From contig NZ_DXUU01000004.1 of assembly GCF_019417665.1 (NCBI RefSeq), positions 11,319-75,318 on the forward strand: a DNA stretch of 64,000 nt, given 5' to 3'. The notes beneath the pieces are model-generated. The model was not told the DNA's origin and made no database searches. It saw only the letters and a list, made by a program, of their open reading frames with translations. The translations under genes and the position numbers were made by a program. The first letter of the stretch is position 1; each line of letters starts with the position of its first letter. Below, one piece after another: positions 1,007 to 62,946 of the stretch. This DNA comes from Ruminococcus sp. Lineage in GTDB: Bacteria > Bacillota > Clostridia > Oscillospirales > Ruminococcaceae.

Positions 1007-3012
1007 AAATGAATTTGTACCCAAAGCTTGCTTGGCACGGCATTGTCAAGAATAAAAAGACCTATCTTCCTTTTCTATTGACCAGCGTTGGCATTGTCAT
1101 GATGTACTATATTGTCGCCTATCTGACCTACAGCAAATCCGTTTATGAAATGCGCGGTGGTCGGAACTTGCAGATGATTTTGTCCTGGGGCATGGCGGTG
1201 ACGGCAATTTTTGCAGTGATCTTCCTGTTCTACATGAATTCTTTCCTCATGCGCCGCCGCAAAACTGAGTTCGGACTGTACAACATCCTGGGTATGGGAA
1301 AGTGGAACATTGCCCGAATCCTGCTATGGCAGAACCTCATACTCTTTGTGGTCTCTCTGGTGGGCGGTCTGGGATTGGGTATCCTCTTATCCAAACTGGC
1401 AGAGCTTTGTGCCACACGAATGTTGGACAATGAAGCGGTTCTGGCATTTTCCATTGAACCTACGGCGGTACGCAATACGCTGCTGCTGACGTTGATTTGT
1501 TTTGCTCTGATCCTGCTGTATTCTCTGGGACAGATTCATGTGGCAAAGCCGGTGGAGCTGCTCCGGGGCGAAAAGGTTGGCGAAAAGCCCCCGAAAGCCC
1601 GGTGGATTCTAGCAGCGATCGGCGTGATCCTGTTGGGCATCGCCTATTATCTGGCAGTGACCACGGAAGAACCTATAGCATCGCTGAGTGTCTTTTTCAT
1701 TGCCATTGTGATGGTCATCATTGCTTCTTATTTGCTGTTCATCTGCGGTTCTGTGGCACTGTGCAAAATTCTGCAAAAGAACAAACGGTATTATTATAAG
1801 ACTAGTCACTTTGTTTCCGTTTCCTCTATGGCGTACCGCATGAAGCGCAACGGCGCAAGTCTCGCTTCCATCTGCATTCTGTCTACGGCGGTGCTGGTCA
1901 TGATTTCCTCCTCCCTGTGCCTGCGCATCGGTGAAGAAGATATTCTGCTCAGCCGATATCCCAGAGATTTGGAGATGAATAGCTACTCTGCGGATGCAGA
2001 ATATATCTCGTCCATAGACAATGCCACTGCAGAAGTTATGCATACTTATGACATAACACCGGAAAATGAAATACGCTATCAGGCGTTAAGCATCAGCGGT
2101 TTGCAGTATGGAGACAAACTCTCTATGAATCTTAGTGACAGTGGTGTTTATATTGATTATGACAATGTGATTGCTGTCGCAATTTTTACATTGGATGAAT
2201 ATGAAGCACTTTCGGGAAGAACGGAAACTTTGGCAGAGGGGGAAGTGTTGGCGTACATGTTCCGAGGTGAATATGATTATGATACCATCCAGCTAGGTGA
2301 ACTTGCCCCTTTTCATATTAAGAAACAGGTGGACAATTTTATTGATCTTGGAAACAGCGTGGCCTCTGTCGTTTCCACGATGTATCTTGTAGTGCCGGAT
2401 ACAGATACAATGCAGGAGATTTATAATTACCAGAAGCAGGTATACGGCGACAATGCCTCTGAGATGGAAACCTACTATGGCTTTGACCTGGACTGCGATG
2501 AGGAAACCCAGATTGCCATTCTGGATGATATTGACAGCAGCATACAGGCGCTGCAATTGCAGGACGAAGCCTTTCCCAGAGTGGACACCGCCTGCCGTGC
2601 GAAACAGCGTTCCAATTTCTATTCTCTGTACGGCGGTCTGCTGTTTCTGGGAATCCTGTTGAGTATTGTCTTTTTGTTCGGCACGGTGCTGATCATGTAC
2701 TACAAGCAGATCTCCGAGGGCTATGAGGACGCATCCCGGTTTGAGATCATGCAGAAAGTGGGCATGACGCAGAAAGAGATCCGGAAGAGTATTAACTCCC
2801 AGGTATTGACCGTCTTTGCTGCACCGCTTTTGGCGGCAGGGGTACACACGGGCTTTGCTTTTCCGCTCATACGCCGGCTGTTGATATTGTTCGGGATGAC
2901 CAATACGCCGCTATTGGTAGGTGTCACAGTGGGCAGTTTTCTGGTATTTGCGTTGCTGTATGTGCTCATGTACAAACTGACCTCTCGGAGCTATTATCAG
3001 CTGGTGAAATAA
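1003..3012 (+). CDS. BceB-type FtsX-family ABC permease (about 10 TM segments with a large extracellular domain)
   Basis: 669 aa with hydrophobic N- and C-terminal blocks flanking a roughly 200-aa soluble region. Translationally coupled to the BceA-like ATPase. Confidence 0.85.
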   Translation: MKMNLYPKLAWHGIVKNKKTYLPFLLTSVGIVMMYYIVAYLTYSKSVYEMRGGRNLQMILSWGMAVTAIFAVIFLFYMNSFLMRRRKTEFGLYNILGMGKWNIARILLWQNLILFVVSLVGGLGLGILLSKLAELCATRMLDNEAVLAFSIEPTAVRNTLLLTLICFALILLYSLGQIHVAKPVELLRGEKVGEKPPKARWILAAIGVILLGIAYYLAVTTEEPIASLSVFFIAIVMVIIASYLLFICGSVALCKILQKNKRYYYKTSHFVSVSSMAYRMKRNGASLASICILSTAVLVMISSSLCLRIGEEDILLSRYPRDLEMNSYSADAEYISSIDNATAEVMHTYDITPENEIRYQALSISGLQYGDKLSMNLSDSGVYIDYDNVIAVAIFTLDEYEALSGRTETLAEGEVLAYMFRGEYDYDTIQLGELAPFHIKKQVDNFIDLGNSVASVVSTMYLVVPDTDTMQEIYNYQKQVYGDNASEMETYYGFDLDCDEETQIAILDDIDSSIQALQLQDEAFPRVDTACRAKQRSNFYSLYGGLLFLGILLSIVFLFGTVLIMYYKQISEGYEDASRFEIMQKVGMTQKEIRKSINSQVLTVFAAPLLAAGVHTGFAFPLIRRLLILFGMTNTPLLVGVTVGSFLVFALLYVLMYKLTSRSYYQLVK

Positions 3013-7192: not shown

Positions 7193-7864
7193 TCATTCCA
7201 CCAGATATCCCATTCTCACTTTGGTGTGGATGAAGTCATGCAGTCCCGCCTGATCCAGCTTTTTTCGCAGTCGGTTGACGTTGACTGTCAGCGTATTTTC
7301 GTTCACAAAACTGTCTGTCTCCCAGAGCCGCTGCATCAGTGCCTCCCGGCTGACTACTTTGCCCTTGTGCTCCATGAGCATCTGTAGGATCCGGTATTCG
7401 TTTTTGGTCAGGTCAATGCGCTGTCCATGATAAGTCAGCACCGCATCGGCAATGTTCAGCATTGCCTCCCGATGTTCCAGCACAGAGACCTGTCCGCCGA
7501 AATCATAGGTGCGCCGCAGAAGTGCCTGGATCTTCGCCAGGAGCACATTCCAGTCAAAGGGCTTTGCAATAAAATCATCTCCGCCCATGTGGATCGCCAT
7601 GATCAGGTTCATATTGTCCGATGCAGAGGATAAGAACACAATGGGTACTTTGGAAACCTGACGGATCTCCTGACACCAGTGATAGCCGTTATAACATGGC
7701 AGCGCAATGTCCATGAGCACCAGATGGGGCTGAAATGCGGAGAATTCCGCCAATACTTTCCGGAAATTTTCCGCCACGTGTATCTCAAAATCCCATTGTT
7801 CCAACTGATGCCGCAGTGCGTCGGCAATACTGCGGTCATCCTCTACCAGAAAAATTCGATACAT
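7193..7864 (-). CDS. OmpR-family response regulator (BceR-like)
   Basis: Receiver domain (LVEDD, LMDIALP, KP) plus a winged-helix C-terminus (LTKNEYRILQ...VRMGY). Confidence 0.9.
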   Translation of the reverse strand: MYRIFLVEDDRSIADALRHQLEQWDFEIHVAENFRKVLAEFSAFQPHLVLMDIALPCYNGYHWCQEIRQVSKVPIVFLSSASDNMNLIMAIHMGGDDFIAKPFDWNVLLAKIQALLRRTYDFGGQVSVLEHREAMLNIADAVLTYHGQRIDLTKNEYRILQMLMEHKGKVVSREALMQRLWETDSFVNENTLTVNVNRLRKKLDQAGLHDFIHTKVRMGYLVE

Positions 7865-12189: not shown

Positions 12190-12207
12190 TTACAGAATAT
12201 TGATGCC

Positions 12208-12248: not shown

Positions 12249-12250
12249 AT

Positions 12251-12422: not shown

Positions 12423-12457
12423 TTATAATTGATTTTGTATGGTGTTGCTTTTTGGAT

Positions 12458-44478: not shown

Positions 44479-44841
44479 ATGATTCCTTTCATGAGAGCCT
44501 GTTTCGTATCTTTTCCCACGCACCTTTTTGGTGAATTTTGTTGTTTTCTGCGTTAAAAATTCTTGCCGGACGAAAGCCAGCCTGCGAATTTTTGCCTTGA
44601 AATCAACGAAAATTCACTCAAAAATCTACGCAGAAAAAGTTACGAAACAGACTCTAGGGCAGAAAAACAGGGGCACATCGTGTCCCCCCGTTCGGCTCGA
44701 ATATGAAAATGGTTTTCATATTCATATTATAGCAGATTTGATATGAGATGTCAAGAGATTTTTTATGCGAACAAAAAATAGATTCTCGTGGGGGACAACG
44801 TAGGAATGTTTCTATGATTGCAAAAAATTTTCCAATACCCC

Positions 44842-44870
44842 TTGACAACGTCTTTTGGATATGCTATACT
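44842..44870 (+). promoter_or_regulatory. Sigma-A promoter of the GntR-ABC operon
   Basis: TTGACA (44842-44847), a 17-nt spacer, then an extended -10 tgcTATACT (44862-44870). Confidence 0.6.
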
Positions 44871-44884
44871 TTATGTGTTTCATG

Positions 44885-44899
44885 AAGTGTACAACACTT
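44885..44899. promoter_or_regulatory. Candidate GntR/YtrA-type operator
   Basis: Inverted repeat AAGTGT-aca-ACACTT just downstream of the predicted transcription start. GT...AC palindromes are typical of GntR-family sites. Confidence 0.4.
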
Positions 44900-44980
44900 A
44901 TAACGCATACAACGCATAAAGATTATGCTGAAACTGAATTGGATCACATCATACATCAGAACAGGAATGGAGGTCTTGCC

Positions 44981-45382
44981 ATGTTTCAAATTGATCCCAT
45001 GTCACGAGAGCCTGTCTATGAGCAAATCATTGCACAGGTAGAACGTTTTATTTTGACAGATGTGCTGCTGCCGGGCAGTCAGATTCCGTCGGTGCGAAAT
45101 GTTTCTATGACAAATTCTATCAATCCCCGTACCATTTTAAAGGCATATACAGATTTGGACGCCCGAGGGCTGATCCAATCTGTACCGGGAAAAGGCTATT
45201 TTGTCTGTACAGACGCACAAGAGAAACTGCTACAGAAAGGACGTGCGAAGATGAAGGATCTGACAGAACTACTCACAGAGCTGGCGATTGCCGGCGTGAC
45301 CAAAGAGGAAATCAGTGCCTGTGTGGAACAGGCCTATGCAGATGCTGAAAAGCAGCACCAACAGGGAGGGACTATAGTATGA
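44981..45382 (+). CDS. GntR-family transcriptional regulator, short YtrA-like subfamily
   Basis: EPVYEQIIAQVERFI...LPSVRNVSMTNSINPRTILKAYTDLDARGLI winged helix with a short C-terminal tail. ATGA overlap with the ABC ATPase gene. Confidence 0.8.
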   Translation: MFQIDPMSREPVYEQIIAQVERFILTDVLLPGSQIPSVRNVSMTNSINPRTILKAYTDLDARGLIQSVPGKGYFVCTDAQEKLLQKGRAKMKDLTELLTELAIAGVTKEEISACVEQAYADAEKQHQQGGTIV

Positions 45383-51034: not shown

Positions 51035-51985
51035 TTATACTGTGGTATGTACCGTTTTCTTTTTCCAGATGCGTTCCAGGGCAAGTCCTGTCAGGAAAGC
51101 AAACACATCACCAAAAGTGGAGATAATGCGCATCGTCACAGCATAAAGCATAATGGTATCCGTGCTCATAAAGCTGCCGCACATGAGCACCATGACAGCC
51201 TCCCGGATGCCGATGCCGCCAGGAGCGCCGGGGGTGACGAAACCGATGATCCACGAGAACAGATATGTTCCCAGAAACAGCCCCATTTTTTCTGCCGGAA
51301 CGTCAAACATGAGGTATGCCGGCACAGCGTACATTGCGGTAGAGATGACGTATTGCGTCAGATAGAGCAAGAATACCACGAGGATTCGTGGGAGAATGCT
51401 GCGGCTCAGGAGTTTTCGATATTTTTCAAAGTATTTATGGAGCTGTTCCCGGAATTTCCAGCGCAGGATGACGATCGCCAGCACCAGTACCAGGATACCC
51501 ACGCCCAGAACGATCAGGAAATTTTTGCGGTAGGTCACGAACAATTCCAGCATATCCCGTCCCATGAGGACGACAATCAGCAAAAGAGGCGTGAGCATAC
51601 AGCAGATAATGTCCAGCATTGTGGCACACGCCACATCCACGTGGCTGATATGGAGGTCAGCGGCAAGCTGATTCCGTCCCACATATTGAAAGACGTTTCC
51701 GGGAACGTATTTCATCAGATTGGAACGTGTGTAGACCGGAAGGGCATCCCGGACGGGAATCTGGATGCCGGAGAGAATGCGGATGAACCGCAGCCACGGC
51801 ATGGTCATAAAGAGCACCATTGCCGCCTGAACCAGGGTGCAGCCGCAGATCATGGCAAGGGTCTTTCCGTGGGTGAACATAGACCAGTCCACATCCATGG
51901 TGACGATTTTTTTCACCACAAAGACCATGGCAATGACAGTGATGATCGTGCCGATGAGCTTATAGTATTTTTTGAGAAATCCCAT
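51035..51985 (-). CDS. Flippase-like membrane protein (UPF0104 / lysyl-PG synthase TM-region family)
   Basis: About 8 TM segments. Conserved TPGAPGGIGIREA motif. ATG at 51985. Confidence 0.65.
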   Translation of the reverse strand: MGFLKKYYKLIGTIITVIAMVFVVKKIVTMDVDWSMFTHGKTLAMICGCTLVQAAMVLFMTMPWLRFIRILSGIQIPVRDALPVYTRSNLMKYVPGNVFQYVGRNQLAADLHISHVDVACATMLDIICCMLTPLLLIVVLMGRDMLELFVTYRKNFLIVLGVGILVLVLAIVILRWKFREQLHKYFEKYRKLLSRSILPRILVVFLLYLTQYVISTAMYAVPAYLMFDVPAEKMGLFLGTYLFSWIIGFVTPGAPGGIGIREAVMVLMCGSFMSTDTIMLYAVTMRIISTFGDVFAFLTGLALERIWKKKTVHTTV

Positions 51986-52049
51986 GAAACGTCCTTTCTG
52001 CGGTGTTTGCCGCCGAGTGAAGTTATTGTTTATTGTAAATATTAAAAAA

Positions 52050-53129
52050 TCATTTAGCGAATCCGAAAATTCCACATAGCAATTTATAGGCTGTCATATA
52101 TCCTATTTTTTCGTCGACCATAGAAGCGGTTATCTGACACCATTGAGCAATACGATTTTCAGCAATTTCCTTTACGCCCCAATACTCACAAAGAGTTTCT
52201 TCGCTTGCTGTTAAAATTGTTTCAACAATTAAATCTCTGTTCTTTTTGATTCTTCCAAATGCGGCAGGCATTTTCTCAAAATTGCCATTGATAGTTCGTA
52301 TATCAACTTGACCGCCCGCAGAAAACTGGTCACGAATATTGGTATTGATAATTCCACAATTCGTTGCAAGCCATAGTGCATATCTCTGATATTTTTTACT
52401 ATTCCCACGACTTAATATTTCAGGGAATAGGGCATATCCTTGGACTGTAAAATATGTTTTTGCATCAGGAGAAAGAACGCTCCATAATTTTACTGTCGCA
52501 GGAACTTCACTTGATTCAACATCCGAATCTGAAGCCCACCAAAGACTTTCGCCTTCTTTTAATAGGCTTTTGTAATATTTAGATACAGGTGCAACGGGAT
52601 TATCCATTTTTCGTAAGGTGTCATAAGGGATTCCCATTTTATCAAAAATAGTTTCCCCTTGTTTCAATTCCATATCAATTTGATAACGAGGATAATGCGT
52701 AACCGATATTCCTGATAAGCATTCTTCATAAGGTCTGCTCTTAAATGCAATGGGCAAGCCTAATTTCCCAAATGTTAGATATATTCTTTCAACATTTTGA
52801 TTTCTTGTTGACTCAAGTATGCTACTTCCGATAGATTTCCAATGGTTTTTATTTGTGCTTTTTACCTCTACACCATAATATTTATTTGCGACAATGTCTG
52901 GAAAAGACGCACCTGATACTAATTGTATTGTCCCTTCGAATGGAGTATGAATTGCACATCGTTCCAACGCATCATAAACATCTTCTTCGAGATCTGTGCC
53001 ATTTCTTTTGGAATAATATTTCTCACGACCGACAGCTTCTTTGTTCAATAATTCATCTGTTGCAGTCATCAATTTACGAAATTCTTCAATAGGTGGTTTT
53101 CTATTCTCAGATATTATCATTCTTTTCAT
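52050..53129 (-). CDS. Candidate type II restriction endonuclease (PD-(D/E)XK)
   Basis: SGASFPDIVANKYYGVEVKSTNK gives P-D...(10 aa)...E-V-K. Overlaps the 3' end of the m5C methyltransferase gene. The track start at 53171 is TTG. ATG codons lie at 53129 and 53120. Confidence 0.6.
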   Translation of the reverse strand: MKRMIISENRKPPIEEFRKLMTATDELLNKEAVGREKYYSKRNGTDLEEDVYDALERCAIHTPFEGTIQLVSGASFPDIVANKYYGVEVKSTNKNHWKSIGSSILESTRNQNVERIYLTFGKLGLPIAFKSRPYEECLSGISVTHYPRYQIDMELKQGETIFDKMGIPYDTLRKMDNPVAPVSKYYKSLLKEGESLWWASDSDVESSEVPATVKLWSVLSPDAKTYFTVQGYALFPEILSRGNSKKYQRYALWLATNCGIINTNIRDQFSAGGQVDIRTINGNFEKMPAAFGRIKKNRDLIVETILTASEETLCEYWGVKEIAENRIAQWCQITASMVDEKIGYMTAYKLLCGIFGFAK

Positions 53130-54564
53130 CTCCAAAATATAATGTCCAATTTTTTTCAATTTGTTTTGCAATATTATATGCTAAAAGTGGTGGCACAGCA
53201 TTTCCGATTATCTTATAGGCATCGGAAGCAGATACTCCCTTTTTACCGTTTCTTGACGGTATAATAAAATCATAATCATCAGGAAATGTTTGTATTCTTG
53301 CACACTCACGGATTGTTAGACGGCGTTCTTTTAAACCATTTTCTAATTCTTTTTTATGCTTTCCACCGTGTTCTTCACTTAATCTGCGAAATTCAATATT
53401 TCCGTGATGTTCCGAACGAATTGTCGGGGAGATACTGTCCAAATTCACCTCGTTTTGTCCTTGACAATGTTTCCCCATAAATTTTGCTTTTGAATACCTC
53501 TGCTGTGATAAATCATCCGTTTCATTAGGTTCTTCCAATCCGTAAAACGCCTGGATGAGATTTGTCGGCGGTAATAGGTCTTTCCCCTGAACATTATATG
53601 CGTGTGTAGCCGGCGGATAGGGGTCATATTCAGGAGGAATGTTTGAAGATGATAACGCTATTTTCGCTTCTTCTGTGAGTTCCGATTTCTTAAACCCTAT
53701 AAAAAACACGCGTTCTCTTGATTGTGGCACCCCATAGTTTGCAGCGTGTAAAACTCTTGCACTTACAACCAAATACCCATTGTCTGAAACCGTACGGAAA
53801 TCATTTTCAATAATTTCTTTTGCATCCGCTAAATTGGTAAGACCTTTAACATTTTCCGCTATAAATACCTTTGGCTCTGTAATAGCAATTACAGCACGCA
53901 TCCACATATAAAGTTGTCCTCTGCTTTCACCGCTCGGAACTGAATTGTCAAGAATCTTACTTCCTGTATGACTTTTATCAGAATCAAAACCTAATCTTTT
54001 GCCTGCAACAGAAAAATCCTGGCAAGGAAATCCTCCGGTTACAACATCGACATTTTTTGGGAAAACATTGATACCGTTTTCTTTATGAAGTTTAACCAAA
54101 TCAACAATACTATCTAAACAGTATGTGCTCTCACTTATTCCTTTTTTTGAAAAATAGGCTGTCCAAGCAGTTCTAGCGTCTTCTCTAATGTCATTTGCAA
54201 ATATACTATGAAATCTTGTTTTTGAAAGATGCGTCCACATTGGATTGGTATTTGATGGGATACCCCAATCAGGGTGTATTTTTGTATTCACAGAAGCGGA
54301 AAGCACATCAAAATCACCCTCAAAACCCAAATCCATTCCACCACACCCTGAGAATAGTGACAGAACATTTAGAGTTGACAATCTTTTTTCATTTGCTTTT
54401 AATTTCTTTTGCTTTGTGGGTTTTTGAGTGCTATACGGAATAAACCATACACCTGCTTGTTTTATTGCGCCTGCAATTCTATTTTCATTACATAAAACCT
54501 GAATACGACGAGGAGTTATAGCCCATTTATCTGCCGCCTCTTTAACAGTTATAAAATCCGTCAT
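53107..54564 (-). CDS. DNA (cytosine-5)-methyltransferase with an N-terminal helix-turn-helix domain
   Basis: Motif I LSLFSGCGGMDLGF, IV GGFPCQDFS, VI ENVKGL, VIII QSRERVFFIGF, IX RRLTIRECARIQTFPDDY, X GNAVPPLLA. N-terminal MTDFITVKEAADKWAITPRRIQVLCNENRIAGA (excisionase/MerR-like HTH). ATG at 54564 follows AAGGAG. Confidence 0.9.
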   Translation of the reverse strand: MTDFITVKEAADKWAITPRRIQVLCNENRIAGAIKQAGVWFIPYSTQKPTKQKKLKANEKRLSTLNVLSLFSGCGGMDLGFEGDFDVLSASVNTKIHPDWGIPSNTNPMWTHLSKTRFHSIFANDIREDARTAWTAYFSKKGISESTYCLDSIVDLVKLHKENGINVFPKNVDVVTGGFPCQDFSVAGKRLGFDSDKSHTGSKILDNSVPSGESRGQLYMWMRAVIAITEPKVFIAENVKGLTNLADAKEIIENDFRTVSDNGYLVVSARVLHAANYGVPQSRERVFFIGFKKSELTEEAKIALSSSNIPPEYDPYPPATHAYNVQGKDLLPPTNLIQAFYGLEEPNETDDLSQQRYSKAKFMGKHCQGQNEVNLDSISPTIRSEHHGNIEFRRLSEEHGGKHKKELENGLKERRLTIRECARIQTFPDDYDFIIPSRNGKKGVSASDAYKIIGNAVPPLLAYNIAKQIEKNWTLYFGDEKNDNI

Positions 54565-54598
54565 TTCAACATTGCTCCTTATAAATAGGTATAGTATT

Positions 54599-54627
54599 AT
54601 TATATTCGTTTTGGCGAATATTTTCAA
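54599..54627 (-). promoter_or_regulatory. Sigma-A promoter of the methyltransferase gene
   Basis: Minus strand reads TTGAAA (54622-54627), a 17-nt spacer, then TATAAT (54599-54604). Confidence 0.55.
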
Positions 54628-54671
54628 TAGGCAATTTGTAAACTCTGGAGAACTTTATATTTTAAAACAAC

Positions 54672-54764
54672 ACCGTTGACGCCAATGACGCTTATTACAT
54701 CCTGCTGTACTACGCAAAGAAATCTGTGGGTCAGGAAGTTTCCTGGGCGGAACTTTTCAACTGA
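54672..54764 (+). pseudogene. 3' remnant of an LRR-dockerin gene (last 30 codons plus stop)
   Basis: Translates to TVDANDAYYILLYYAKKSVGQEVSWAELFN*. Nucleotide-level similarity to 57709-57801. No upstream coding sequence (in-frame TAA at 54663-54665). Confidence 0.8.
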
Positions 54765-54786
54765 ACCCCTGTTTCATAAAGATCCC

Positions 54787-54820
54787 AAACCGGAGCGACA
54801 CTGACCGTTCCGGTTTTTTG
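54787..54820 (+). terminator. Terminator retained downstream of the dockerin remnant
   Basis: Stem accgga.../...tccggt followed by tttttt. Same design as 36146-36178. Confidence 0.65.
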
Positions 54821-54892
54821 CTGTCCATCTGCAAGAAATGGTGCATTCCTGCATAGAATAAAGACAGATCATCAGAACAGGAGGCATTCTCT

Positions 54893-56725
54893 ATGTGTGG
54901 AATCACCGGCATGGTGCATATGGAACAGGATTTGCGGAAACAAGAGACATTGCTGCGGCAAATGCAGACAACGTTAAACCGACGGGGTCCCGATCAGGAG
55001 GGCATTTTTCTGGAGGAACACTGCGCATTGGCGCATACACGTCTTGCAGTCATTGACGTGGAACATGGCAGACAGCCTATGGAAACTACCGTCAGCGGCG
55101 AGACCTATACCATCGTCTACAACGGCGAGCTGTACAATACTCCGGAATTGCGTGGGCAGCTGGAACGGGAAGGTGTACAGTTCCAGACCCATTGCGACAC
55201 CGAAGTGATCTTGCAATCTTACGCCAACTGGGGGCCTCGGTGCGTGGAACAATTCAACGGCATTTTTGCCTTTGCCATCTGGGAACACCACGCCCAGCGG
55301 CTCTTTCTGGCGAGAGACCGCATCGGCGTAAAACCGCTGTTTTATGCGGAAATTCCGGGTGGTCTGGTGTTTGGCTCTGAAATCAAGGCACTTCTGAAAC
55401 ATCCAGACGTGCCCCACGAGATCGACAAGACCGGTATTTCTGAGCTGCTCCTTATGGGACCGGGACGCACGCCGGGTTATGGTGTATTCCGCACAGTGCG
55501 GGAGGTGAAGCCGGCGCATTGCGGCTATTATATGCAGGGTACACTGCATCTGCACCCTTACTGGGAACTCCACGCCGCTGTCCATACGGAATCCTTTTCT
55601 CAGACGGCGGAGCATGTCCGGGAGCTTGTCACCGATGCTGTCCGGCGGCAGCTGGTGTCCGATGTACCCATCGGTACGTTCCTTTCCGGTGGATTGGATT
55701 CCAGTCTGCTTTCGTCACTGGCGTGCCGGGAACTGCATAGCCGTGGGGAAGAACTGCATACCTTTTCCGTGGACTATCGGGACAATGACCGTTATTTTCA
55801 AAAAAGCCACTTCCAGCCTACCAGCGACCCTACCTATATCCGCTGTATGGAACGATATCTGGGCAGTCAGCACCACTGGACGGTGTTGGATACGCCGGCG
55901 CTGGCGGAGGCACTTTCTGCGGCAGTGGAGGCAAGAGATCTGCCGGGCATGGTGGATGTGGACAGCTCGCTGCTGCTGTTCTGCCGGGAGATACGTCAGG
56001 AAGTTACCGTTGCCCTTTCCGGGGAATGCGCAGACGAATTGTTCGGAGGGTATCCCTGGTATCGTGACCCAGATGTGCGCCGTGTGAATGGTTTCCCCTG
56101 GGCGCAGAGCACCGCCTATCGCAGTCAGTTTCTGCGCCCGGAGTTTGCGGCGGAGATCGACGCCCAGCAATATGTGCAGGATGCCTATGAACGTACCATT
56201 GCTTCGGCGGAAAAGTTGCCGGACGATTCGCCTCTGGAGGCACGGATGCGGGAGATGATGAAGATGAACCTGGATTGGTTTATGCAGACGCTGCTGGATC
56301 GGAAAGACCGCATGAGCATGTACAGCGCATTGGAGGTGCGTGTACCCTTCTGCGATTATCGTATTGCGGAGTATCTGTATAATGTGCCCTGGGAGTATAA
56401 GGACTGGAATGGCTATGAGAAGGGCTTGCTGCGGACTGCCATGCAGGATGCCCTGCCCCCGGAGGTGCTCTGGCGGAAGAAAAGCCCATACCCCAAGACC
56501 CACAACCCCAGCTATCTGGCAGCGGTGTCCCATATGCTGGAAGAGGTGGTGCGTGATCCCCAGTCTCCGGTATTACAGCTGGTGCGCAAGGATATGCTGG
56601 GGCATCTGCTGGAGAGCGAGGAGTCGGTGCAGTGGTATGGCCAGCTCATGACACGGCCGCAGATTATGGCGTATTTTGTGCAGATGAATGATTGGATGCT
56701 GCGATATCAGGTGAAGATTGTATGA
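54893..56725 (+). CDS. asnB: Asparagine synthase (glutamine-hydrolysing)
   Basis: N-terminal MCGITG nucleophile. PP-loop FLSGGLDSS. Confidence 0.9.
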   Translation: MCGITGMVHMEQDLRKQETLLRQMQTTLNRRGPDQEGIFLEEHCALAHTRLAVIDVEHGRQPMETTVSGETYTIVYNGELYNTPELRGQLEREGVQFQTHCDTEVILQSYANWGPRCVEQFNGIFAFAIWEHHAQRLFLARDRIGVKPLFYAEIPGGLVFGSEIKALLKHPDVPHEIDKTGISELLLMGPGRTPGYGVFRTVREVKPAHCGYYMQGTLHLHPYWELHAAVHTESFSQTAEHVRELVTDAVRRQLVSDVPIGTFLSGGLDSSLLSSLACRELHSRGEELHTFSVDYRDNDRYFQKSHFQPTSDPTYIRCMERYLGSQHHWTVLDTPALAEALSAAVEARDLPGMVDVDSSLLLFCREIRQEVTVALSGECADELFGGYPWYRDPDVRRVNGFPWAQSTAYRSQFLRPEFAAEIDAQQYVQDAYERTIASAEKLPDDSPLEARMREMMKMNLDWFMQTLLDRKDRMSMYSALEVRVPFCDYRIAEYLYNVPWEYKDWNGYEKGLLRTAMQDALPPEVLWRKKSPYPKTHNPSYLAAVSHMLEEVVRDPQSPVLQLVRKDMLGHLLESEESVQWYGQLMTRPQIMAYFVQMNDWMLRYQVKIV

Positions 56726-56850
56726 ATAAACGGTGCGCATTCTTTTGGGGTGCGCACCATTTTTGTGAAAATTTCTGCAATGAGATTGCAATTGTTCTGG
56801 ATTTATGGTATAATATGAAAAATACGTCCGAAAAAAGGAGGATTCAAAAG

Positions 56851-57801
56851 ATGAGGATGTGGAAAAAGATTTGTGCGGTGATGACGGCAGGGACGATTTG
56901 TGCCATGAGTTTACCGTGGACGGTCAGTGCGAAGGATTATACTTATGGTGATTTGACGTATACCGTGTTCGAGGGTGGAACTGTGGAGATCACGGACTGC
57001 AATGAAAGTGCGACGGAAGTAGAGATCCCGGCGGAGATTGATGGGATGGCGGTGACCAGTATTGGGAAGGAAACGTTTTCTGAGTGTACCAGTTTGACTG
57101 ATATCACGATTCCGGACAGCGTGACTAGCATTGGATGGAGTGCGTTTTCTGGTTGCACCAGTTTGACTGAGATTACCATTCCGGATAGTGTGACAAGCAT
57201 TGCAGGGCGTACATTTTTGGGGTGTAACAGTTTGACCCAGATTACCATTCTGGATAGTGTGACAATCATTGGAAGCTATGCGTTTACTGGTTGCACCAGT
57301 TTGACTGAGATTACCATTCCGGATAGTATGATCAGCATTGAACATGGTGCGTTTGGTAGTTGTACCAGTTTGACTGAGGTTATTATTCCAGATAGCGTGA
57401 TCGGTATTGGATGGAGTGCGTTTGGTAATTGTACCAGTTTAACTGATGTTTATTACAGCGGTACAGAAGAAGAGTGGAATGCAATTGAATTATTTACTTC
57501 AGGAAATGACTATCTCCTGAACGCTACCATTCACTTCAACAGTACATCATTCGAAATCACCCCGTCCACCGGCGACATCGACGGCGACAACACAGTTGAC
57601 GCAAACGATGCTTACTTCTGCCTCCTCGCCTATGCGAAAATGTCTGTGGGCAGCAGATCCGGTCTGACCGATGCACAAATTCAGGCGGCAGATGTGAACG
57701 ACGACGGAACAGTCGATGCCAATGACGCTTACTATATCCTGCTGTACTACGCAAAGAAATCTGTGGGTCAGGATGTTTCCTGGGCTGAACTCCTCGGCTG
57801 A
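56851..57801 (+). CDS. BspA-type LRR protein with an intact C-terminal dockerin
   Basis: Signal peptide ...WTVSA|KD. Repeats ITIPDSVTSIGxxAFxGCTSLTE. Dockerin GDIDGDNTVDANDAYFCLLAYAKMSV...ADVNDDGTVDANDAYYILLYYAKKSVG. ATG at 56851 follows AAGGAGG. Confidence 0.9.
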   Translation: MRMWKKICAVMTAGTICAMSLPWTVSAKDYTYGDLTYTVFEGGTVEITDCNESATEVEIPAEIDGMAVTSIGKETFSECTSLTDITIPDSVTSIGWSAFSGCTSLTEITIPDSVTSIAGRTFLGCNSLTQITILDSVTIIGSYAFTGCTSLTEITIPDSMISIEHGAFGSCTSLTEVIIPDSVIGIGWSAFGNCTSLTDVYYSGTEEEWNAIELFTSGNDYLLNATIHFNSTSFEITPSTGDIDGDNTVDANDAYFCLLAYAKMSVGSRSGLTDAQIQAADVNDDGTVDANDAYYILLYYAKKSVGQDVSWAELLG

Positions 57802-57823
57802 ATCAGAACAAACTCATAAAAAT

Positions 57824-57866
57824 AACCCCATGTGCAATCTGAACTGCACACGGGGTTTTTGTTTTG
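57824..57866. terminator. Bidirectional terminator between the LRR gene and ftsH copy 2
   Basis: Stem ccccatgtgca/tgcacacgggg flanked by an A-run and a T-run. Confidence 0.65.
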
Positions 57867-57873
57867 CTTGTAA

Positions 57874-59718
57874 TTACGACGGCTGCTCTGCTTCGATCAT
57901 GGGACGGTTCAGAATCTGCATGAACTCGTCTCCGGTGATGGTCTCGTGCTCGTAGAGATATTTTGCGATCTCGTGGAGCTTTCCCTGATTCGACTGGAGC
58001 ATCTGCATGGCACGGTCGTACTGGGTCTGAATGATTTCCGTGACCTTCTTGTCGATCTTCGTCTGGGTCTCCATGGAACAGGTGAGACTTGCGTCACCGC
58101 CCAGATACTGGCTCTGTACCGTTTCCATTGCCACCATGCCGAATTCTTCGCTCATACCGAAGCGGCTCACCATAGAGCGTGCCAGCTTCGTTGCCTGTTC
58201 AATGTCGTTGGAGGCACCGGTTGTGATCTCGTGGAATATCAATTCCTCTGCGGCACGTCCGCCGGTAAGAGTGGCGATCTTGTTTTCCATTTCCGTTTTT
58301 GTCATGAGGAAATGCTCGCCCTCGTCCACCTGCATGGTATATCCCAGTGCGCCGGATGTCCGGGGAATAATGGTGATCTTCTGTACCGGTGCGGACTGGG
58401 ACTGCATTGCTGCAACCAGGGCATGTCCTACCTCGTGGTAGGAAACGGTGAGTTTCTCCTTGTTGGAGAGTACCCGGTTTTTCTTCTGATATCCGGCAAT
58501 GACCACTTCCACGCTCTCCATGAGATCTTCCTGTGTGGCACAGGATCTTCCCAGCCGGACGGCACGCAGTGCAGCTTCGTTAATGATATTCGCAAGCTCC
58601 GCACCGGATGCGCCGGCGGCTGTTCGGGCAATGGCAGAAAAGTCCACATTGCCGGCCAGCTTGATTTTCTTCGCATGGACTTTTAAAATGTCAATGCGCC
58701 CCTGGAGATCGGGCAGCTCTACGGGGATCCGCCGGTCAAATCGTCCCGGACGCAGCAGCGCCGGATCCAGAGACTCCGGACGGTTGGTGGCGGCAAGAAT
58801 GACAACGCCCTTGGAACCGTCGAAACCGTCCATTTCCGTGAGCAGCTGGTTCAGGGTCTGTTCCCGTTCATCGTTGCCGCCCATCTGTCCGCCGTCACGC
58901 TTTTTGCCGATGGTGTCGATCTCGTCGATAAAGACGATACATGGCGCTTTTTCGTTTGCCTGCTTGAACAGGTCACGAACCTTTGCCGCACCCATGCCGA
59001 CGAACATCTCTACGAATTCCGAACCGGAAATGGAGAAAAAGGGTACGCTTGCTTCACCGGCAACTGCCTTTGCCAATAAAGTTTTACCAGTTCCGGGAGG
59101 GCCTACCAGCAGTGCACCTTTCGGCATGGATGCGCCGATCTCCTTGTAGCGTTCCGGTTTGTGAAGATAGTCCACGATCTCGGCGAGCAGTTCCTTGGCC
59201 TCTTCTTCACCGGCGACATCCTGGAATTTAATACCTGTGGTGGACTTCACATAGACTTTGGCGTTGCTCTTGCCCATGCCGAACATCATGGAACCATCGC
59301 CGCCGCCCATGCGCTCTGTCATTTTCTTGCTGAAGAAGCGGAATATCAAGAGCATCAGGGCGATGGGCAGAACATAGCTGACCAAAATGTAAAGCAGAGG
59401 ATTGGTGCCGCTGTCGATCTCTGACTTGAATTCCGCACCAGATTTGTAAAGGCGGTCGATGAGATCCGGATCATTCAAGGTGCCAGTGCGGTAAATATGT
59501 TTTTCGTCCTTATCTGTAAAGGTAATCTGGTTGGATTCGATTTGTACAGAACCGATCTCCTTATCTTCTGTCATGCTGATAAAAGTGTCATAACCAACTT
59601 CTTCTATCTTGCGGTTGAACAGATTCGGAAATACAAACGCCTGTAATAGCATAAATACGCAGAGGGCGATGATCCAGTAGGAGATCAATGGCTTCCGTGG
59701 TTTCTTTTGTTCTTCCAT
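57874..59718 (-). CDS. ftsH: ATP-dependent zinc metalloprotease FtsH (copy 2)
   Basis: [25 protein letters not shown] at 59718 lies 7 nt after AGGAG. Confidence 0.9.
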
Positions 59719-59831
59719 ATACACGCTCCTGTAGAACGGTGCAGCAAAGCACCGAATGGCAATAGCCTATGATAATACATCATATCATATAAATTTGTCG
59801 AACGCAAGCGTTCTGTGTGAAAGTTTGATGA

Positions 59832-59859
59832 TAAATTCAACTGGAGTAAATTCAACTGG
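59832..59859. repeat. Tandem 13-bp direct repeat upstream of ftsH copy 2
   Basis: taaattcaactgg at 59832-59844 and at 59847-59859, spaced 15 bp apart. Confidence 0.6.
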
Positions 59860-59907
59860 TGCGCTGGATTTTCATAGATGGAACTGCTGTGCTTTCCAAA
59901 GCCGCTC

Positions 59908-59936
59908 TTGACAGTCATTTCAAAGAATGCTATAAT
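59908..59936 (+). promoter_or_regulatory. Consensus sigma-A promoter of the zinc-ribbon membrane protein gene
   Basis: TTGACA (59908-59913), a 17-nt spacer, then tgcTATAAT (59928-59936). Confidence 0.6.
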
Positions 59937-60010
59937 GAAGAAAATAAAAACAACATCGGAACAGCCGTTCGGTATAATGCCCTTCGGCGGCAAGAAACGG
60001 AGGAAACAAC

Positions 60011-61153
60011 ATGGCAAAGGCAAAGAAAGAAAAAACACCATCCGAACCGGGCGGCACAAGATCCGGGAAGAAACCCGGCGGCGGTGCTGTCATTGGGTCG
60101 GTTCTACTGTTTATTTTGACATGTATTCTGGGAATTTTCTTCTTGTGCAGTATGACAATGCACACGGCATTGACCCAGGGCAGTCTTTCGAAGGCACTTT
60201 CTAAAGTAGATCTATCCCAGGCGGAGATCACAGAGGGCGGCAAGACTCAGAAGCTGGGTACGTGGATATACGACTGGTATCTGTGGGATGCACCCAATCT
60301 ATCCCAGGAGTATGCCGAAACAGTCATGGCACAGCCGGAGGTCAATGAATTTTTCTGTGATTATCTGCACGAGCTGAGTGCCTATCTCAACAAGAAGACC
60401 GATACCCTGCCGGAACTGGATGTGAATGACATTGCAGATCTGATGCAGGTGGATCTGGCGACACGGATGCAGAAAGAGACCGGCGTGACCTTTGCAGAAG
60501 CGGATCGTCAGTCGATCCAATGGAGCATGGGCGATGATATTGCAGACTGGAACGAGAATCTTCAGGAGAAAATCGGTTCTGGTTTCGGGAAATTTTTCGT
60601 GCGGTTTTCCTGCACCATGTCAGGTGTGATCACCTTTGGTGTTTACCCAGTTGTTTGCTTTATTCTGTGGCTGTTTCTGGCGATCAAAGGGCACTGGCGC
60701 AAGGGCAGATTCCTTACAGGCTATGGCTGTGCAGTTGCCATTCCCAGTTTGCTTGTGCTGGCAGTCAGCGGTATTCTGCTGTTGCTGGTGAATGTGTTTG
60801 ACATGATCCCAGCGCTATCTTTTGCAGCAGATGGACTTCCCACGCTGCTGCTGCCGGCGGTATGGTCCAGTCTGACAGTTGCACTTTGTGGCATGATCGT
60901 GGCATCCATCGGGATCTGCACCAATGCTGTTGTTAAGGCAAAGCGGAAAAAGGCAAAGATTGCGGAAATGCAGCCGGCAGCACCTGCAGCTGCGGCAGAA
61001 CCAGAACCGACTCCGGAATTTGTCTACACCGAGGCACCGGAAACCAAGGCAGAAACCTCTGCTTCTGAGCCAACCGTGCAGCTCTGTCCTCACTGCGGTG
61101 TACAGAATGAACTAGGCAGTAAGTTCTGCGGCTCTTGCGGTCAGAAAATGTAA
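60011..61153 (+). CDS. Membrane protein with a C-terminal zinc-ribbon
   Basis: Basic N-terminus, several TM helices, an Ala/Pro/Glu linker, then CPHCGVQNELGSKFCGSCGQ. Confidence 0.65.
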   Translation: MAKAKKEKTPSEPGGTRSGKKPGGGAVIGSVLLFILTCILGIFFLCSMTMHTALTQGSLSKALSKVDLSQAEITEGGKTQKLGTWIYDWYLWDAPNLSQEYAETVMAQPEVNEFFCDYLHELSAYLNKKTDTLPELDVNDIADLMQVDLATRMQKETGVTFAEADRQSIQWSMGDDIADWNENLQEKIGSGFGKFFVRFSCTMSGVITFGVYPVVCFILWLFLAIKGHWRKGRFLTGYGCAVAIPSLLVLAVSGILLLLVNVFDMIPALSFAADGLPTLLLPAVWSSLTVALCGMIVASIGICTNAVVKAKRKKAKIAEMQPAAPAAAAEPEPTPEFVYTEAPETKAETSASEPTVQLCPHCGVQNELGSKFCGSCGQKM

Positions 61154-61175
61154 GGTCACACATACATAAGCATAA

Positions 61176-61217
61176 AAACAAAACCGGAACGATCGGTGTG
61201 GTCGTTCCGGTTTTTTG
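61176..61217. terminator. Bidirectional rho-independent terminator
   Basis: 11-bp stem ccggaacgatc/ggtcgttccgg (61184-61210) flanked by an A-run and a T-run. Confidence 0.8.
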
Positions 61218-61230
61218 TGTTATTGTGGTT

Positions 61231-62916: not shown

Positions 62917-62946
62917 TTTCAAAACTCCTTTTTCATAATCTCCAAA

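What the first reader, a model, noticed from the sequence alone, without database searches (positions are those of the whole stretch)
52045..54665. Lower-GC type II restriction-modification cassette: HTH-fused m5C methyltransferase plus an unclassified PD-(D/E)XK partner
Seen: two overlapping minus-strand genes in a block that is visibly more AT-rich than its surroundings. Hand counts on six 60-nt lines inside gave 30-48% G+C, against 52% on one line in each flanking gene.

The 485-aa protein has all the m5C methyltransferase motifs (FSGCGG, PCQ, ENV, QSRER, RE..ARLQ-like, GNAVP). It also has an N-terminal excisionase/MerR-like HTH.

The partner (356-373 aa) has a clean PD...EVK nuclease motif near residue 100. 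Its remaining roughly 230 residues match nothing I can name.

Established: some m5C methyltransferases (SsoII/EcoRII type) use an N-terminal HTH to autoregulate R-M expression in place of a C protein.

Inference: this is an active or recently acquired defence islet with a possibly new endonuclease family and unknown specificity. I found no integrase, transposase or terminal repeats. There is no terminator between the nuclease gene and the downstream flippase-like gene, so the cassette may now drive that gene.
Basis: partly seen in the sequence, partly recalled or inferred. Interest (0 to 1): 0.75.

Follow-up and report, generated by a model that had tools for sequence, protein, structure and literature searches.

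The report
Self-regulated restriction-modification cassette, horizontally acquired
This is an intact two-gene bacterial DNA defence unit (a cytosine methylase plus its cutting enzyme) that replaced part of a surface-protein gene in a gut Ruminococcus; it is an ordinary kind of system, but its exact borders and its probable built-in on/off switch can be read unusually clearly.

Summary
Window 52038..54671 (2,634 bp) is a foreign block with 36.2% GC, against 48.9% for the rest of the window. It holds only two overlapping minus-strand genes: an HTH-fused m5C methyltransferase (485 aa) and a PD-(D/E)XK nuclease (356 aa).

A sister Ruminococcus genome has, at the same site, a full LRR/dockerin gene and an intact promoter for the downstream gene. 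The cassette is therefore a clean substitution with no repeats and no mobility genes.

The nuclease is not a new family. It matches a REBASE-derived Type II REase model (E 1e-38) and has about 890 clusters of relatives. In 81 of 87 related loci it lies beside an m5C methyltransferase, in three gene orders. It does lack any Pfam or NCBIfam model and any close solved structure.

The HTH is HTH_17-type. A palindrome (ATATTCG-N6-CGAATAT) fills the spacer of the cassette's near-consensus promoter. It is conserved across relatives whose flanks are unalignable, and a second HTH variant pairs with a different palindrome. This supports SsoII-like autorepression by a non-homologous HTH.

One junction removes the -35 of the downstream gene's promoter, so read-through from the cassette is plausible. 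Specificity remains unknown. Verdict: a real system, a new member of a known kind, of moderate-to-low interest.

The parts
52038..54671 (.). Acquired cassette (substitution block), 2,634 bp, GC 36.2%
   Evidence: blastn against the empty-site locus L010: window 51035-52037 matches L010 6505-7507, and window 54672-55200 matches L010 9780-10308, both about 90% identical. Nothing in between is alignable. GC outlier, z = -5.4.
53107..54564 (-). M gene: HTH_17-fused DNA (cytosine-5) methyltransferase, 485 aa
   Evidence: PF00145 E 2.6e-54 over the full profile. TIGR00675 scores 169 bits against a cut-off of 100.65. PADLOC MTase_II E 3.1e-76. Best solved relative is M.HaeIII, E 7.7e-24. Called as 485 aa on public contigs.
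54415..54564 (-). N-terminal HTH_17 (excisionase/MerR-like) DNA-binding domain of M, about residues 1-50
   Evidence: On the isolated domain: HTH_59 E 1.2e-4 and HTH_17 E 3.2e-4. HTH_17 is hit by 22 of 22 aligned family N-termini, best E 2e-8.
54599..54627 (-). Cassette promoter TTGAAA-N17-TATAAT (-35 at 54627..54622, -10 at 54604..54599)
   Evidence: Best sigma-70-like site in 51700-55000, matching 11 of 12. The -35 and -10 are conserved in homologous leaders. DNA homology between cassettes in different genomes begins at this -35.
54602..54621 (.). Inverted repeat ATATTCG-N6-CGAATAT in the promoter spacer, overlapping the -10: candidate operator for the M HTH
   Evidence: 7-nt perfect arms. 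The core TTCG-N6-CGAA is present in 48 of 70 homologous leaders, against 62 copies in all 510 kb of loci. Box type tracks HTH type with no cross-pairs.
52050..53120 (-). R gene: PD-(D/E)XK Type II restriction endonuclease, 356 aa
   Evidence: PADLOC PDLC03508 REase_II E 1.1e-38. P74, D75, E85 and K87 are invariant in 62 homologues at 32-57% identity. AF2 pLDDT 91.9. Weak EcoRV, SwaI, HincII and Hjc fold matches. Adjacent to an m5C MTase in 81 of 87 related loci.
53107..53120 (-). 14-nt overlap between the end of M and the start of R (one operon, possible translational coupling)
   Evidence: Coordinates. The same overlap is seen in L004, L042 and L130.
54672..54764 (+). 3' remnant (30 codons plus stop) of a BspA-type LRR/dockerin gene truncated by the cassette
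   Evidence: Translation TVDANDAYYILLYYAKKSVGQEVSWAELFN*. About 90% DNA identity to the end of the 694-aa LRR_5 + Dockerin_1 gene of L010.
54787..54816 (+). Terminator-like hairpin plus T-run belonging to the truncated gene
   Evidence: 11-pair stem with 6 GC pairs, followed by TTTTGCTG. It lies in the flank shared with L010.
52032..52037 (-). Retained -10 hexamer (TACAAT) of the downstream gene's native promoter. The -35, the TG and the spacer are replaced by cassette DNA, and the R stop codon lies in the new spacer.
   Evidence: L010 has TTGACA-N17-TACAAT with TG, matching 11 of 12, at 7530..7502. The breakpoint is at 7507/7508.
51035..51985 (-). Downstream LPG_synthase_TM ('flippase-like') membrane protein gene, probably now transcribed partly by read-through
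   Evidence: PF03706 E 4.7e-12. A 64-nt gap follows the R stop and no minus-strand terminator-like site is found. Read-through itself is an inference.

Best explanation
This is an intact, self-contained Type II restriction-modification operon. It consists of promoter, operator, M and R, in a human-gut Ruminococcus sp.

How it arrived. It entered by illegitimate, substitutive recombination. 2,634 bp of AT-rich foreign DNA replaced about 2.27 kb of resident DNA. The lost DNA was the 5' 95% of a BspA-LRR/dockerin surface-protein gene, its promoter region, and the -35 half of the neighbouring gene's promoter.

How it works (inferred from family knowledge). The methyltransferase methylates C5 of a cytosine in an as yet unknown short site. 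The PD-(D/E)XK nuclease (E45?/D75/E85/K87, EcoRV-like core) cuts that site when it is unmethylated.

How it is regulated (inferred from comparative sequence evidence; no binding data). The HTH_17 domain at the N-terminus of M binds as a dimer to the palindrome in the -35/-10 spacer of the operon's only promoter. The half-sites TTCG and CGAA are 10 bp apart centre to centre. As M accumulates it represses the whole M-R transcript. This would be negative feedback analogous to M.SsoII, M.EcoRII and M.MspI, but it uses a non-homologous HTH and a co-directional, overlapping M-then-R layout.

Effect on the neighbour (inferred). No terminator follows R and the downstream gene has lost its -35. That LPG_synthase_TM gene is therefore probably now expressed at least partly from the cassette promoter.
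For: Identity of the two genes:
- M.
- R: PADLOC REase_II E 1.1e-38. The catalytic P-D...E-x-K is invariant in 62 diverse homologues. The AF2 model is confident, and its only fold matches are EcoRV-class restriction enzymes and Hjc.

Functional linkage of M and R:
- 81 of 87 M-anchored loci have an R-family gene adjacent, in three gene orders, with R identity from 28 to 74%. Four of the six exceptions are cut by contig ends.
- Annotated examples: Klebsiella plasmid (REase + dcm + vsr), Parabacteroides (dcm + R), Blautia phage.

Acquisition by substitution:
- Empty site L010 and exact breakpoints. GC and GC3 outlier.
- Truncated gene remnant. No mobility genes.
- The same cassette sits in unrelated neighbourhoods elsewhere. 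DNA homology between cassettes starts at the -35 and ends at the end of R.

Autoregulation:
- Near-consensus promoter with a perfect 7-nt inverted repeat in its spacer.
- The core box is present in 48 of 70 homologous leaders, where about 0.003 per leader is expected by chance. It is almost absent from the remaining ~500 kb.
- HTH type A pairs with box A in 46 of 47 loci and HTH type B with box B in 8 of 9. There are no cross-pairs. Box A occurs in all three gene orders. Five truly HTH-less M genes have no box.
- The N-terminus is HTH_17 in 22 of 22 members.
- Published precedent for the mechanism class: PMC3874152 and PMC6100179.

Read-through:
- The native promoter in L010 is TTGACA-N17-TACAAT, and the break falls at the edge of its -10.
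- No minus-strand terminator follows R.
Against: - No experimental data exist for methylation, cleavage, HTH binding or transcription.
- The recognition sequence could not be inferred. Palindrome depletion is equally strong in control genomes.
- The HTH/operator covariation amounts to essentially two clades, so it is one evolutionary event rather than many independent ones.
- One HTH-less M (L092) keeps a degenerate type-B palindrome, and two HTH-bearing loci (L103, L127) lack a recognisable box.
- A single auto-repressed M-R transcript does not by itself explain how M gets ahead of R when the cassette enters a new cell.
- The retained -10 plus AT-rich cassette DNA might still give the downstream gene some promoter activity of its own, so read-through may not be required.
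- The Foldseek matches are weak (E >= 5e-3, TM 0.26-0.44).
Confidence: 0.72

Rival explanations
1. The palindrome in the promoter spacer is not an HTH operator. Instead it is, or contains, the system's own methylation site, so that expression is set by promoter methylation (a CfrBI-type switch). Alternatively it is bound by a host factor.
For: Both palindrome types contain CG dinucleotides that an m5C enzyme could target. Methylation-dependent control of R-M promoters is established (PMC3874152). L092 lacks the HTH yet keeps a degenerate palindrome.
Against: M cores that are about 60% identical, and so probably share specificity, sit behind two unrelated palindromes: TTCG-N6-CGAA and CACGATATCGTG. 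The palindrome type follows the HTH type and not the catalytic core. Five HTH-less relatives lack both boxes. The variable 6-nt centre and the 10-bp half-site spacing fit a dimeric HTH better than a Type II site.
Confidence: 0.1
2. The cassette is a genetically intact but functionally silent or decaying leftover. For example, R is attenuated and M acts as an orphan or epigenetic methylase. It would then matter only as a promoter donor for the downstream membrane-protein gene.
For: R-less relatives of M exist: L114 and L126 have at least 2.3 kb of room. Activity was not measured. The junction does rewire the downstream promoter.
Against: Both ORFs are full length. All 15 family-invariant R residues and all the m5C motifs are present. 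Identical M and R proteins recur on eight public contigs from several samples. R is kept next to M in 81 of 87 loci.
Confidence: 0.1
3. The block is the visible part of a larger mobile element (prophage, ICE, transposon or integron cassette), and it moved by that element's machinery.
For: Family members occur on plasmids and phages. One 3.5-kb contig (L088) is circularly permuted.
Against: The empty-site comparison limits the foreign DNA to 2,634 bp, which holds only M and R. There is no target duplication, no terminal repeat and no attachment-like site. No integrase or transposase lies within +/-10 kb. Four other contexts are equally free of mobility genes beside the cassette; only a TnpV-domain ORF lies about 4.4 kb from R in L131.
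Confidence: 0.05

Closest known systems
SsoII / Ecl18kI (also EcoRII, MspI, ScrFI) Type II R-M systems, in which the m5C methyltransferase autoregulates through an N-terminal HTH
   Same: An m5C methyltransferase carries an extra N-terminal HTH domain of about 50-70 aa. A palindromic site overlaps the M promoter. The mechanism class, in which the antitoxin-like M represses its own promoter, is established (PMC3874152; PMC6100179).
   Different: Tested here on pCE10C:
- The SsoII-type HTH is Xre-type HTH_3 (E 1e-12), not HTH_17.
- The catalytic cores are only 25% identical.
- The SsoII-type nuclease is of the EcoRII-C family, which is unrelated to this one.
- The genes are divergent around a 109-bp intergenic region with a 15-bp palindrome. 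Here M and R are co-directional and overlapping behind one promoter, so repression would act on both genes.
Binding is unproven here.
PADLOC PDLC03508 'REase_II' family, e.g. the 'restriction endonuclease' UZL45477.1 on Klebsiella pneumoniae plasmid pINF177.2, next to dcm and vsr
   Same: The same nuclease family. The window R matches the model at E 1.1e-38 and the Klebsiella protein at 4.7e-115. tblastn gives 31.5% identity over 95% of the length. Both are paired with an m5C methyltransferase.
   Different: The window protein is a distant branch (131 bits against 382). The Klebsiella locus is convergent, includes a Vsr repair gene, and has an M of 366 aa, too short to carry the N-terminal extension. 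The window cassette has no vsr. Neither the named prototype nor the specificity of the family could be recovered with these tools.
EcoRV-class (beta-class) PD-(D/E)XK restriction endonucleases: EcoRV, HincII, SwaI
   Same: These are the best structural matches to the AF2 model's N-terminal nuclease core. The P-D...(D/E)-x-K motif lies on adjacent strands. A nearly invariant upstream acidic residue (E45) recalls EcoRV E45/D74/D90/K92; that last comparison is from my own knowledge, not tested.
   Different: The matches are weak: E >= 5e-3, TM 0.26-0.44, 6-12% identity. There is no sequence-level PDB hit. The C-terminal helical half of about 140 aa, with an invariant R263-D264, has no structural counterpart.
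C-protein-controlled Type II R-M systems (PvuII, Esp1396I)
   Same: A small HTH regulator acts on palindromic boxes in the R-M promoter to time and limit expression (PMC2175313 and PMC2504287, listed).
   Different: There is no separate C gene; the 2,634-bp cassette holds only M and R. The HTH is fused to M. One relative (L122) has the HTH as a separate 64-aa ORF, which may be a frameshift.

Membership tests
Type II restriction-modification system (separate M and R) | Adjacent, separately encoded methyltransferase and endonuclease genes | tested here: met
   The ORFs overlap by 14 nt. The same pair is present on public contigs and in 81 of 87 related loci.
Type II restriction-modification system (separate M and R) | Methyltransferase with the complete C5-cytosine MTase motif set | tested here: met
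   PF00145 matches profile positions 2-324 of 324, E 2.6e-54. TIGR00675 is above its cut-off. Motifs I, IV, VI, VIII, IX and X are visible in the translation.
Type II restriction-modification system (separate M and R) | Endonuclease matches a profile built from known Type II REases | tested here: met
   PADLOC PDLC03508 REase_II E 1.1e-38. All 10 other family members tested hit the same model.
Type II restriction-modification system (separate M and R) | Site-specific cleavage that is blocked by the cognate methylation | not testable with these tools
   Needs a methylome and cleavage assays. The palindrome-avoidance test was uninformative.
PD-(D/E)XK nuclease superfamily | Conserved (P)D...(D/E)-x-K catalytic motif | tested here: met
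   P74, D75, E85 and K87 are invariant in 62 sequences at 32-57% identity.
PD-(D/E)XK nuclease superfamily | Restriction-endonuclease-like alpha/beta core fold | tested here: inconclusive
   The AF2 model is confident (pLDDT 91.9). The top hits are all EcoRV, SwaI, HincII and Hjc, but they are weak (E 5e-3 to 0.3, TM 0.2-0.44).
SsoII/Ecl18kI-type methyltransferase-autoregulated R-M | Extra N-terminal HTH DNA-binding domain on the m5C methyltransferase | tested here: met
   HTH_17 in 22 of 22 N-termini.
SsoII/Ecl18kI-type methyltransferase-autoregulated R-M | Palindromic regulatory site overlapping the M promoter | tested here: met
   Met at sequence level only.
SsoII/Ecl18kI-type methyltransferase-autoregulated R-M | HTH domain homologous to that of M.SsoII (Xre-type HTH_3) | tested here: not met
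   The pCE10C M N-terminus matches HTH_3 at 1e-12. The window M matches HTH_17 and HTH_59. The N-termini do not align.
SsoII/Ecl18kI-type methyltransferase-autoregulated R-M | Divergently transcribed M and R genes sharing the regulatory intergenic region | tested here: not met
   Here the layout is M then R on the same strand, overlapping. SsoII is divergent.
SsoII/Ecl18kI-type methyltransferase-autoregulated R-M | Demonstrated binding of M to the site and repression of its promoter | not testable with these tools
   Needs EMSA or footprinting and reporter assays.
C-protein-controlled R-M | Separate small controller (C) gene with C-boxes | tested here: not met
   The 2,634-bp cassette holds only M and R.
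Recombinase-borne mobile element (IS, transposon, integron cassette, prophage) | Integrase or transposase gene, terminal repeats or target-site duplication | tested here: not met
   No such Pfam domain lies within +/-10 kb. The breakpoints show no duplication and no inverted ends.

The most novel reading that the evidence does not exclude
The cassette would represent a large, undescribed class of minimal, portable R-M modules in gut Firmicutes. Their conserved unit begins exactly at the -35 hexamer and ends at the R stop codon. An HTH_17 domain fused to the methyltransferase, recruited independently of the Xre-type HTH of SsoII-like enzymes, would repress the whole M-R operon through a spacer-embedded palindrome. 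At least two co-evolved HTH/operator specificities would exist, which could insulate co-resident systems from cross-talk. The nuclease would be a structurally uncharacterised branch, with an EcoRV-like core plus a new helical domain, and possibly an uncatalogued specificity.
Probability: 0.45. Interest if true: 0.45.

Novelty: new member of a known kind. Interest (0 to 1): 0.3.

Why it matters
The system itself is ordinary. Three things make it useful.

1. It is a textbook-clean case of an R-M cassette arriving by substitution. Both breakpoints are known to the base, a surface LRR/dockerin gene is destroyed, and a neighbour's promoter is cut between its -35 and -10. This shows concretely how 'selfish' defence genes rewire host loci without any recombinase.

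2. It offers a directly testable regulatory design. An HTH_17-methyltransferase fusion and a 20-bp operator sit in a near-consensus promoter, with a natural second HTH/operator pair as a specificity control. This would extend methyltransferase-mediated autoregulation beyond the Xre-type SsoII paradigm and to a single-operon layout.

3. The nuclease family is large (about 890 clusters at 50% identity) and spans Firmicutes, Bacteroidota, Proteobacteria, plasmids and phages. Yet it has no Pfam or NCBIfam model and no structure. It is therefore a reasonable target for annotation and structural work, and a practical barrier to know about when transforming gut Ruminococcus.

Tried and rejected
1. 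Specificity from palindrome avoidance. GGWCC, GGCC, CGCG, CTGCAG and GCATGC are strongly depleted in the window's host DNA, but equally so in control Ruminococcus loci without the cassette. The pooled host flanks come from mixed taxa. Result: uninformative.

2. Naming the nuclease.
   - Pfam and NCBIfam gave nothing.
   - A PDB sequence search gave only a spurious E 0.91 hit to vaccinia K7.
   - Two large protein searches returned only 'hypothetical protein' or a generic 'restriction endonuclease'.
   - REBASE is not available here.

3. Foldseek against the PDB found no match with E <= 1e-3, so no close structural prototype exists.

4. Two further TTCG-N6-CGAA boxes at 33286 and 33593 looked like possible extra operators. 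They lie inside the AAA-domain coding sequence of an FtsH gene. About one box per 64 kb is expected by chance, so they were rejected as chance matches.

5. Accession CP003037 for pCE10C was not in the collections. The SsoII-type plasmid was found instead by searching for the published regulatory site.

6. The idea that L088 is a small R-M plasmid: no Rep-like ORF was found, so a circle and a tandem repeat cannot be told apart.

7. Larger mobile element, and decay or orphan methylase: considered and set aside (see rivals).

8. A literature search for an HTH_17-methyltransferase fusion found nothing relevant. This is absence of evidence only, because most subscription-journal papers are not in the searched library.


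Full report
**1. Observation**

The region holds two overlapping minus-strand ORFs. M is 53107..54564, 485 aa from the ATG. R is 52050..53120, 356 aa from the ATG. The 506-aa and 373-aa forms start at upstream TTG codons. Gene calls on public contigs that carry identical proteins use the 485-aa and 356-aa forms. The genes overlap by 14 nt.

GC in 500-nt windows is 0.34-0.40 inside the block and 0.50-0.57 on either side. Once the block is delimited it has GC 0.362. No other 2,634-bp span of the 64-kb window falls below 0.416 (mean 0.489, z = -5.4). GC3 is 0.25 for R and 0.26 for M, against 0.38-0.66 in six neighbouring genes.

**2. What the two proteins are**

M matches PF00145 over the whole profile (E 2.6e-54). 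It passes the TIGR00675 cut-off and hits PADLOC Type II MTase models (E 3.1e-76). Its nearest solved relative is M.HaeIII (E 7.7e-24). All the m5C motifs are visible in the translation.

Its first ~50 residues are an HTH. On the window protein alone the Pfam evidence is sub-threshold: HTH_59 at E 1.2e-4 and HTH_17 at E 3.2e-4. However, all 22 aligned N-termini from relatives hit HTH_17 (best E 2e-8), and some also hit Exc or MerR models.

R has no Pfam or NCBIfam hit and no sequence-level PDB relative. It does match the REBASE-derived PADLOC model PDLC03508 'REase_II' at E 1.1e-38.
- **Family size.** There are 1,491 word-indexed hits. An exhaustive search found 891 clusters at 50% identity with E <= 1e-3, of which 350 have E <= 1e-30.
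- **Catalytic residues.** In 62 members at 32-57% identity, P74, D75, E85 and K87 are invariant. So are G83, G98, E103, Y131, H142, P144, R145, Y146, Y166, R263 and D264. E45 is nearly invariant.
- **Structure.** An AlphaFold2 model built from that alignment is confident (pLDDT 91.9, pTM 0.77). Foldseek against the PDB returns only weak matches (E 5e-3 to 0.3, TM 0.2-0.44), all to EcoRV, SwaI, HincII and the Hjc resolvase. The C-terminal helical half is unmatched.

R is therefore a PD-(D/E)XK restriction endonuclease with an EcoRV-like core. It belongs to a known but poorly annotated and structurally uncharacterised family.

**3. Is R functionally tied to a methyltransferase?**

Eighty metagenomic loci anchored on M homologues (59-71% identity), plus seven others, were screened for R. 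Of these 87 loci, 81 have an R-family gene adjacent. Four of the six exceptions are cut by a contig end within 560 nt of M. Only L114 and L126 lack R with room to spare.

Three gene orders occur: M then R, R then M, and convergent. R identity ranges from 28 to 74%.

Annotated records agree:
- A Klebsiella plasmid carries 'restriction endonuclease' + dcm + vsr. That R matches the PADLOC model at 4.7e-115.
- Parabacteroides has dcm + R.
- A Blautia phage carries a family member.
- Six IMG/VR viral contigs carry members.

**4. Acquisition and exact borders**

The window comes from a human-gut Ruminococcus sp. MAG. Species-representative genomes were scanned with the flanking asnB gene. This found L010, a sister Ruminococcus MAG in which asnB is 98% identical and the LPG_synthase_TM protein 94% identical. 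L010 has no M or R. Between the same two flanking genes it has a 694-aa BspA-type LRR_5 + Dockerin_1 gene.

blastn gives window 51035-52037 = L010 6505-7507 and window 54672-55200 = L010 9780-10308, each about 90% identical. Nothing in between aligns. Window 52038..54671 (2,634 bp) therefore replaces 2,272 bp of L010.

There is no target duplication, no terminal inverted repeat and no obvious microhomology. No integrase or transposase lies within +/-10 kb.

The window state is the derived one, for two reasons:
- It retains a 30-codon 3' remnant of the LRR/dockerin gene plus that gene's terminator.
- It retains only half of a promoter (section 6).

Closely related cassettes (71-86% protein identity) sit in unrelated chromosomal neighbourhoods, with no mobility gene adjoining the cassette; in L131 a TnpV-domain ORF lies about 4.4 kb from R. 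Those neighbourhoods are serpin/IMPDH, cobW/ABC, response regulator/DUF4097, and epimerase. Their DNA homology to the window always begins at 54628-54642, which is the -35 hexamer, and ends near the R stop. The transferable unit is promoter + M + R and nothing else.

In 38 of 48 loci the cassette has lower GC than its flanks.

**5. Regulation**

The 107 nt of cassette DNA upstream of M hold the best sigma-70-like site of the region: TTGAAA-N17-TATAAT, matching 11 of 12, at 54627..54599. Its spacer is filled by a perfect inverted repeat, ATATTCG-N6-CGAATAT, at 54602-54621. The repeat overlaps the first three bases of the -10.

The leaders of the homologous M genes are unalignable upstream of the -35 and poorly conserved between the -10 and the ribosome-binding site. 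Even so, 48 of 70 contain TTCG-N6-CGAA at the same position, and another 11 contain a half-site variant. The entire 510 kb of loci holds only 62 such boxes. About 0.003 per leader is expected by chance. Some loci carry a second box just downstream of the -10.

A subgroup whose N-terminal domain differs (MLVSLTEYAEIHGKSSDTLRRLAENG...IGRNWVV) instead has CACGATATCGTG in the same spacer position.

Over 66 non-redundant loci:

| HTH type | Loci | With matching box | With the other box |
|---|---|---|---|
| A | 47 | 46 (box A or half variant) | 0 |
| B | 9 | 8 (box B) | 0 |
| Truly HTH-less | 5 | no box of either type | – |

Box A occurs in all three gene orders.

Caveats:
- The A/B split is essentially two clades, so it counts as one covariation event.
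- L092 lacks the HTH but keeps a degenerate B box.
- L103 and L127 have an HTH but no recognisable box.

I conclude, at about 0.7 confidence, that the HTH of M binds this palindrome as a dimer and represses the operon promoter. The half-sites lie 10 bp apart centre to centre. This mechanism class is established for M.EcoRII, M.SsoII/Ecl18kI, M.ScrFIA and M.MspI (PMC3874152; PMC6100179).

**6. Effect on the neighbour**

In L010 the LPG_synthase_TM gene has a near-consensus promoter: TTGACA-N17-TACAAT with an extended TG, matching 11 of 12. The cassette breakpoint falls exactly at the upstream edge of that -10.

In the window the -10 (52037..52032) survives. The -35, the TG and the spacer are now cassette DNA: the -35 position reads TCGCTA, a 3-of-6 match, and the R stop codon lies in the spacer. 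No terminator-like site follows R on the minus strand.

It remains an inference.

**7. Comparison with known systems**

I fetched an SsoII-type system (pCE10C) by searching for its published regulatory site. Its M has an Xre-type HTH_3 domain (E 1e-12). Its catalytic core is 25% identical to the window M, and the N-termini do not align. Its R belongs to the EcoRII-C family, and its genes are divergent.

The window system therefore works like SsoII but is not a member of that family. It is an independent HTH_17 fusion in a co-directional, overlapping M-R operon. It has no separate C gene.

The nuclease's nearest named relatives carry only the generic label 'restriction endonuclease'. The prototype enzyme and the recognition sequence could not be recovered.

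**8. What failed**

Palindrome avoidance could not reveal the specificity, because the same sites are equally depleted in control Ruminococcus loci. Two operator-like boxes near 33.3 kb lie in FtsH coding sequence and are chance matches. A literature search for HTH_17-methyltransferase fusions found nothing relevant.

**9. Verdict**

This is a genuine, intact, horizontally acquired Type II R-M cassette. It is a new member of a known kind.

The added value lies in three results:
- base-exact substitution borders;
- a promoter-capture junction;
- strong comparative evidence for an SsoII-analogous autoregulatory switch built from a different HTH.

Interest is 0.3. It would rise to about 0.45 if the HTH_17/operator switch and a new specificity were confirmed.

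Noticed in passing
L088:1-3545 (metagenome contig X66_Mouflon__coassemble_740): A 3.5-kb contig is circularly permuted. The M core starts at nt 9 and R is at 1280..2347. About 960 bp without ORFs follow, and then the promoter + HTH segment sits at 3312-3519. The ends join in register. This is either a small circle or a tandem repeat of the M-R cassette. No Rep-like ORF was found.
   Followed up: partly
L122:1590-2306: In one relative the type-A HTH is a separate 64-aa ORF immediately upstream of an HTH-less M core, either a natural split resembling a C protein or a frameshift. It is preceded by a 155-aa ORF that looks Vsr-like by eye. The A-type box is still present.
   Followed up: partly
L092:2840-3001; L124 and L125 leaders: An HTH-less M gene (L092) keeps a degenerate type-B palindrome (CACGATATCATG) in its promoter spacer. 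Two other HTH-less leaders show different short palindromes in the spacer (AACAA-N4-TTGTT and AATGA-N5-TCATT, seen by eye). This hints at other regulators, or it may be chance in AT-rich DNA.
   Followed up: no
window 1-52037 and 54672-64000; control loci L009-L029, L036: Host DNA is strongly depleted in several GC-rich palindromes relative to a Markov expectation: GGCC 37 observed against 219 expected, GGWCC 13 against 74, CGCG 14 against 145, CTGCAG 6 against 46, GCATGC 1 against 15. Related Ruminococcus genomes show the same depletion. This suggests long-standing exposure of the lineage to several other R-M specificities.
   Followed up: partly
window 56851-57801, 54672-54764; L010:7785-9866 and 11966-13678: There is a paralogous family of BspA-type LRR_5 proteins with a C-terminal type I dockerin flanking asnB. 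One copy was destroyed by the cassette. The copy number and length of these cell-surface genes differ between the two sister genomes.
   Followed up: partly
window 32846-34831 and 57874-59724: Two FtsH paralogues (AAA + M41 protease) lie in the same 64-kb window. The first contains two chance matches to the operator core TTCG-N6-CGAA inside its AAA-domain coding sequence.
   Followed up: yes
window 44500-45250 and about 3450-6700: These are the other relatively low-GC stretches: 0.38-0.41 over 500 nt near 44.5-45.2 kb, and the lowest non-cassette 2.6-kb spans (0.416-0.421) near 3.4-6.7 kb. Their content was not examined.
   Followed up: no
L001:5056-6866 (Klebsiella pneumoniae plasmid pINF177.2); L002:48-494 (Blautia phage NatCom_24097): Proteobacterial and phage members of this R family are accompanied by a very-short-patch-repair (Vsr) endonuclease or a small 'endonuclease' gene. 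The window cassette has none. Vsr linkage fits a 5mC-generating system but does not reveal the site.
   Followed up: no
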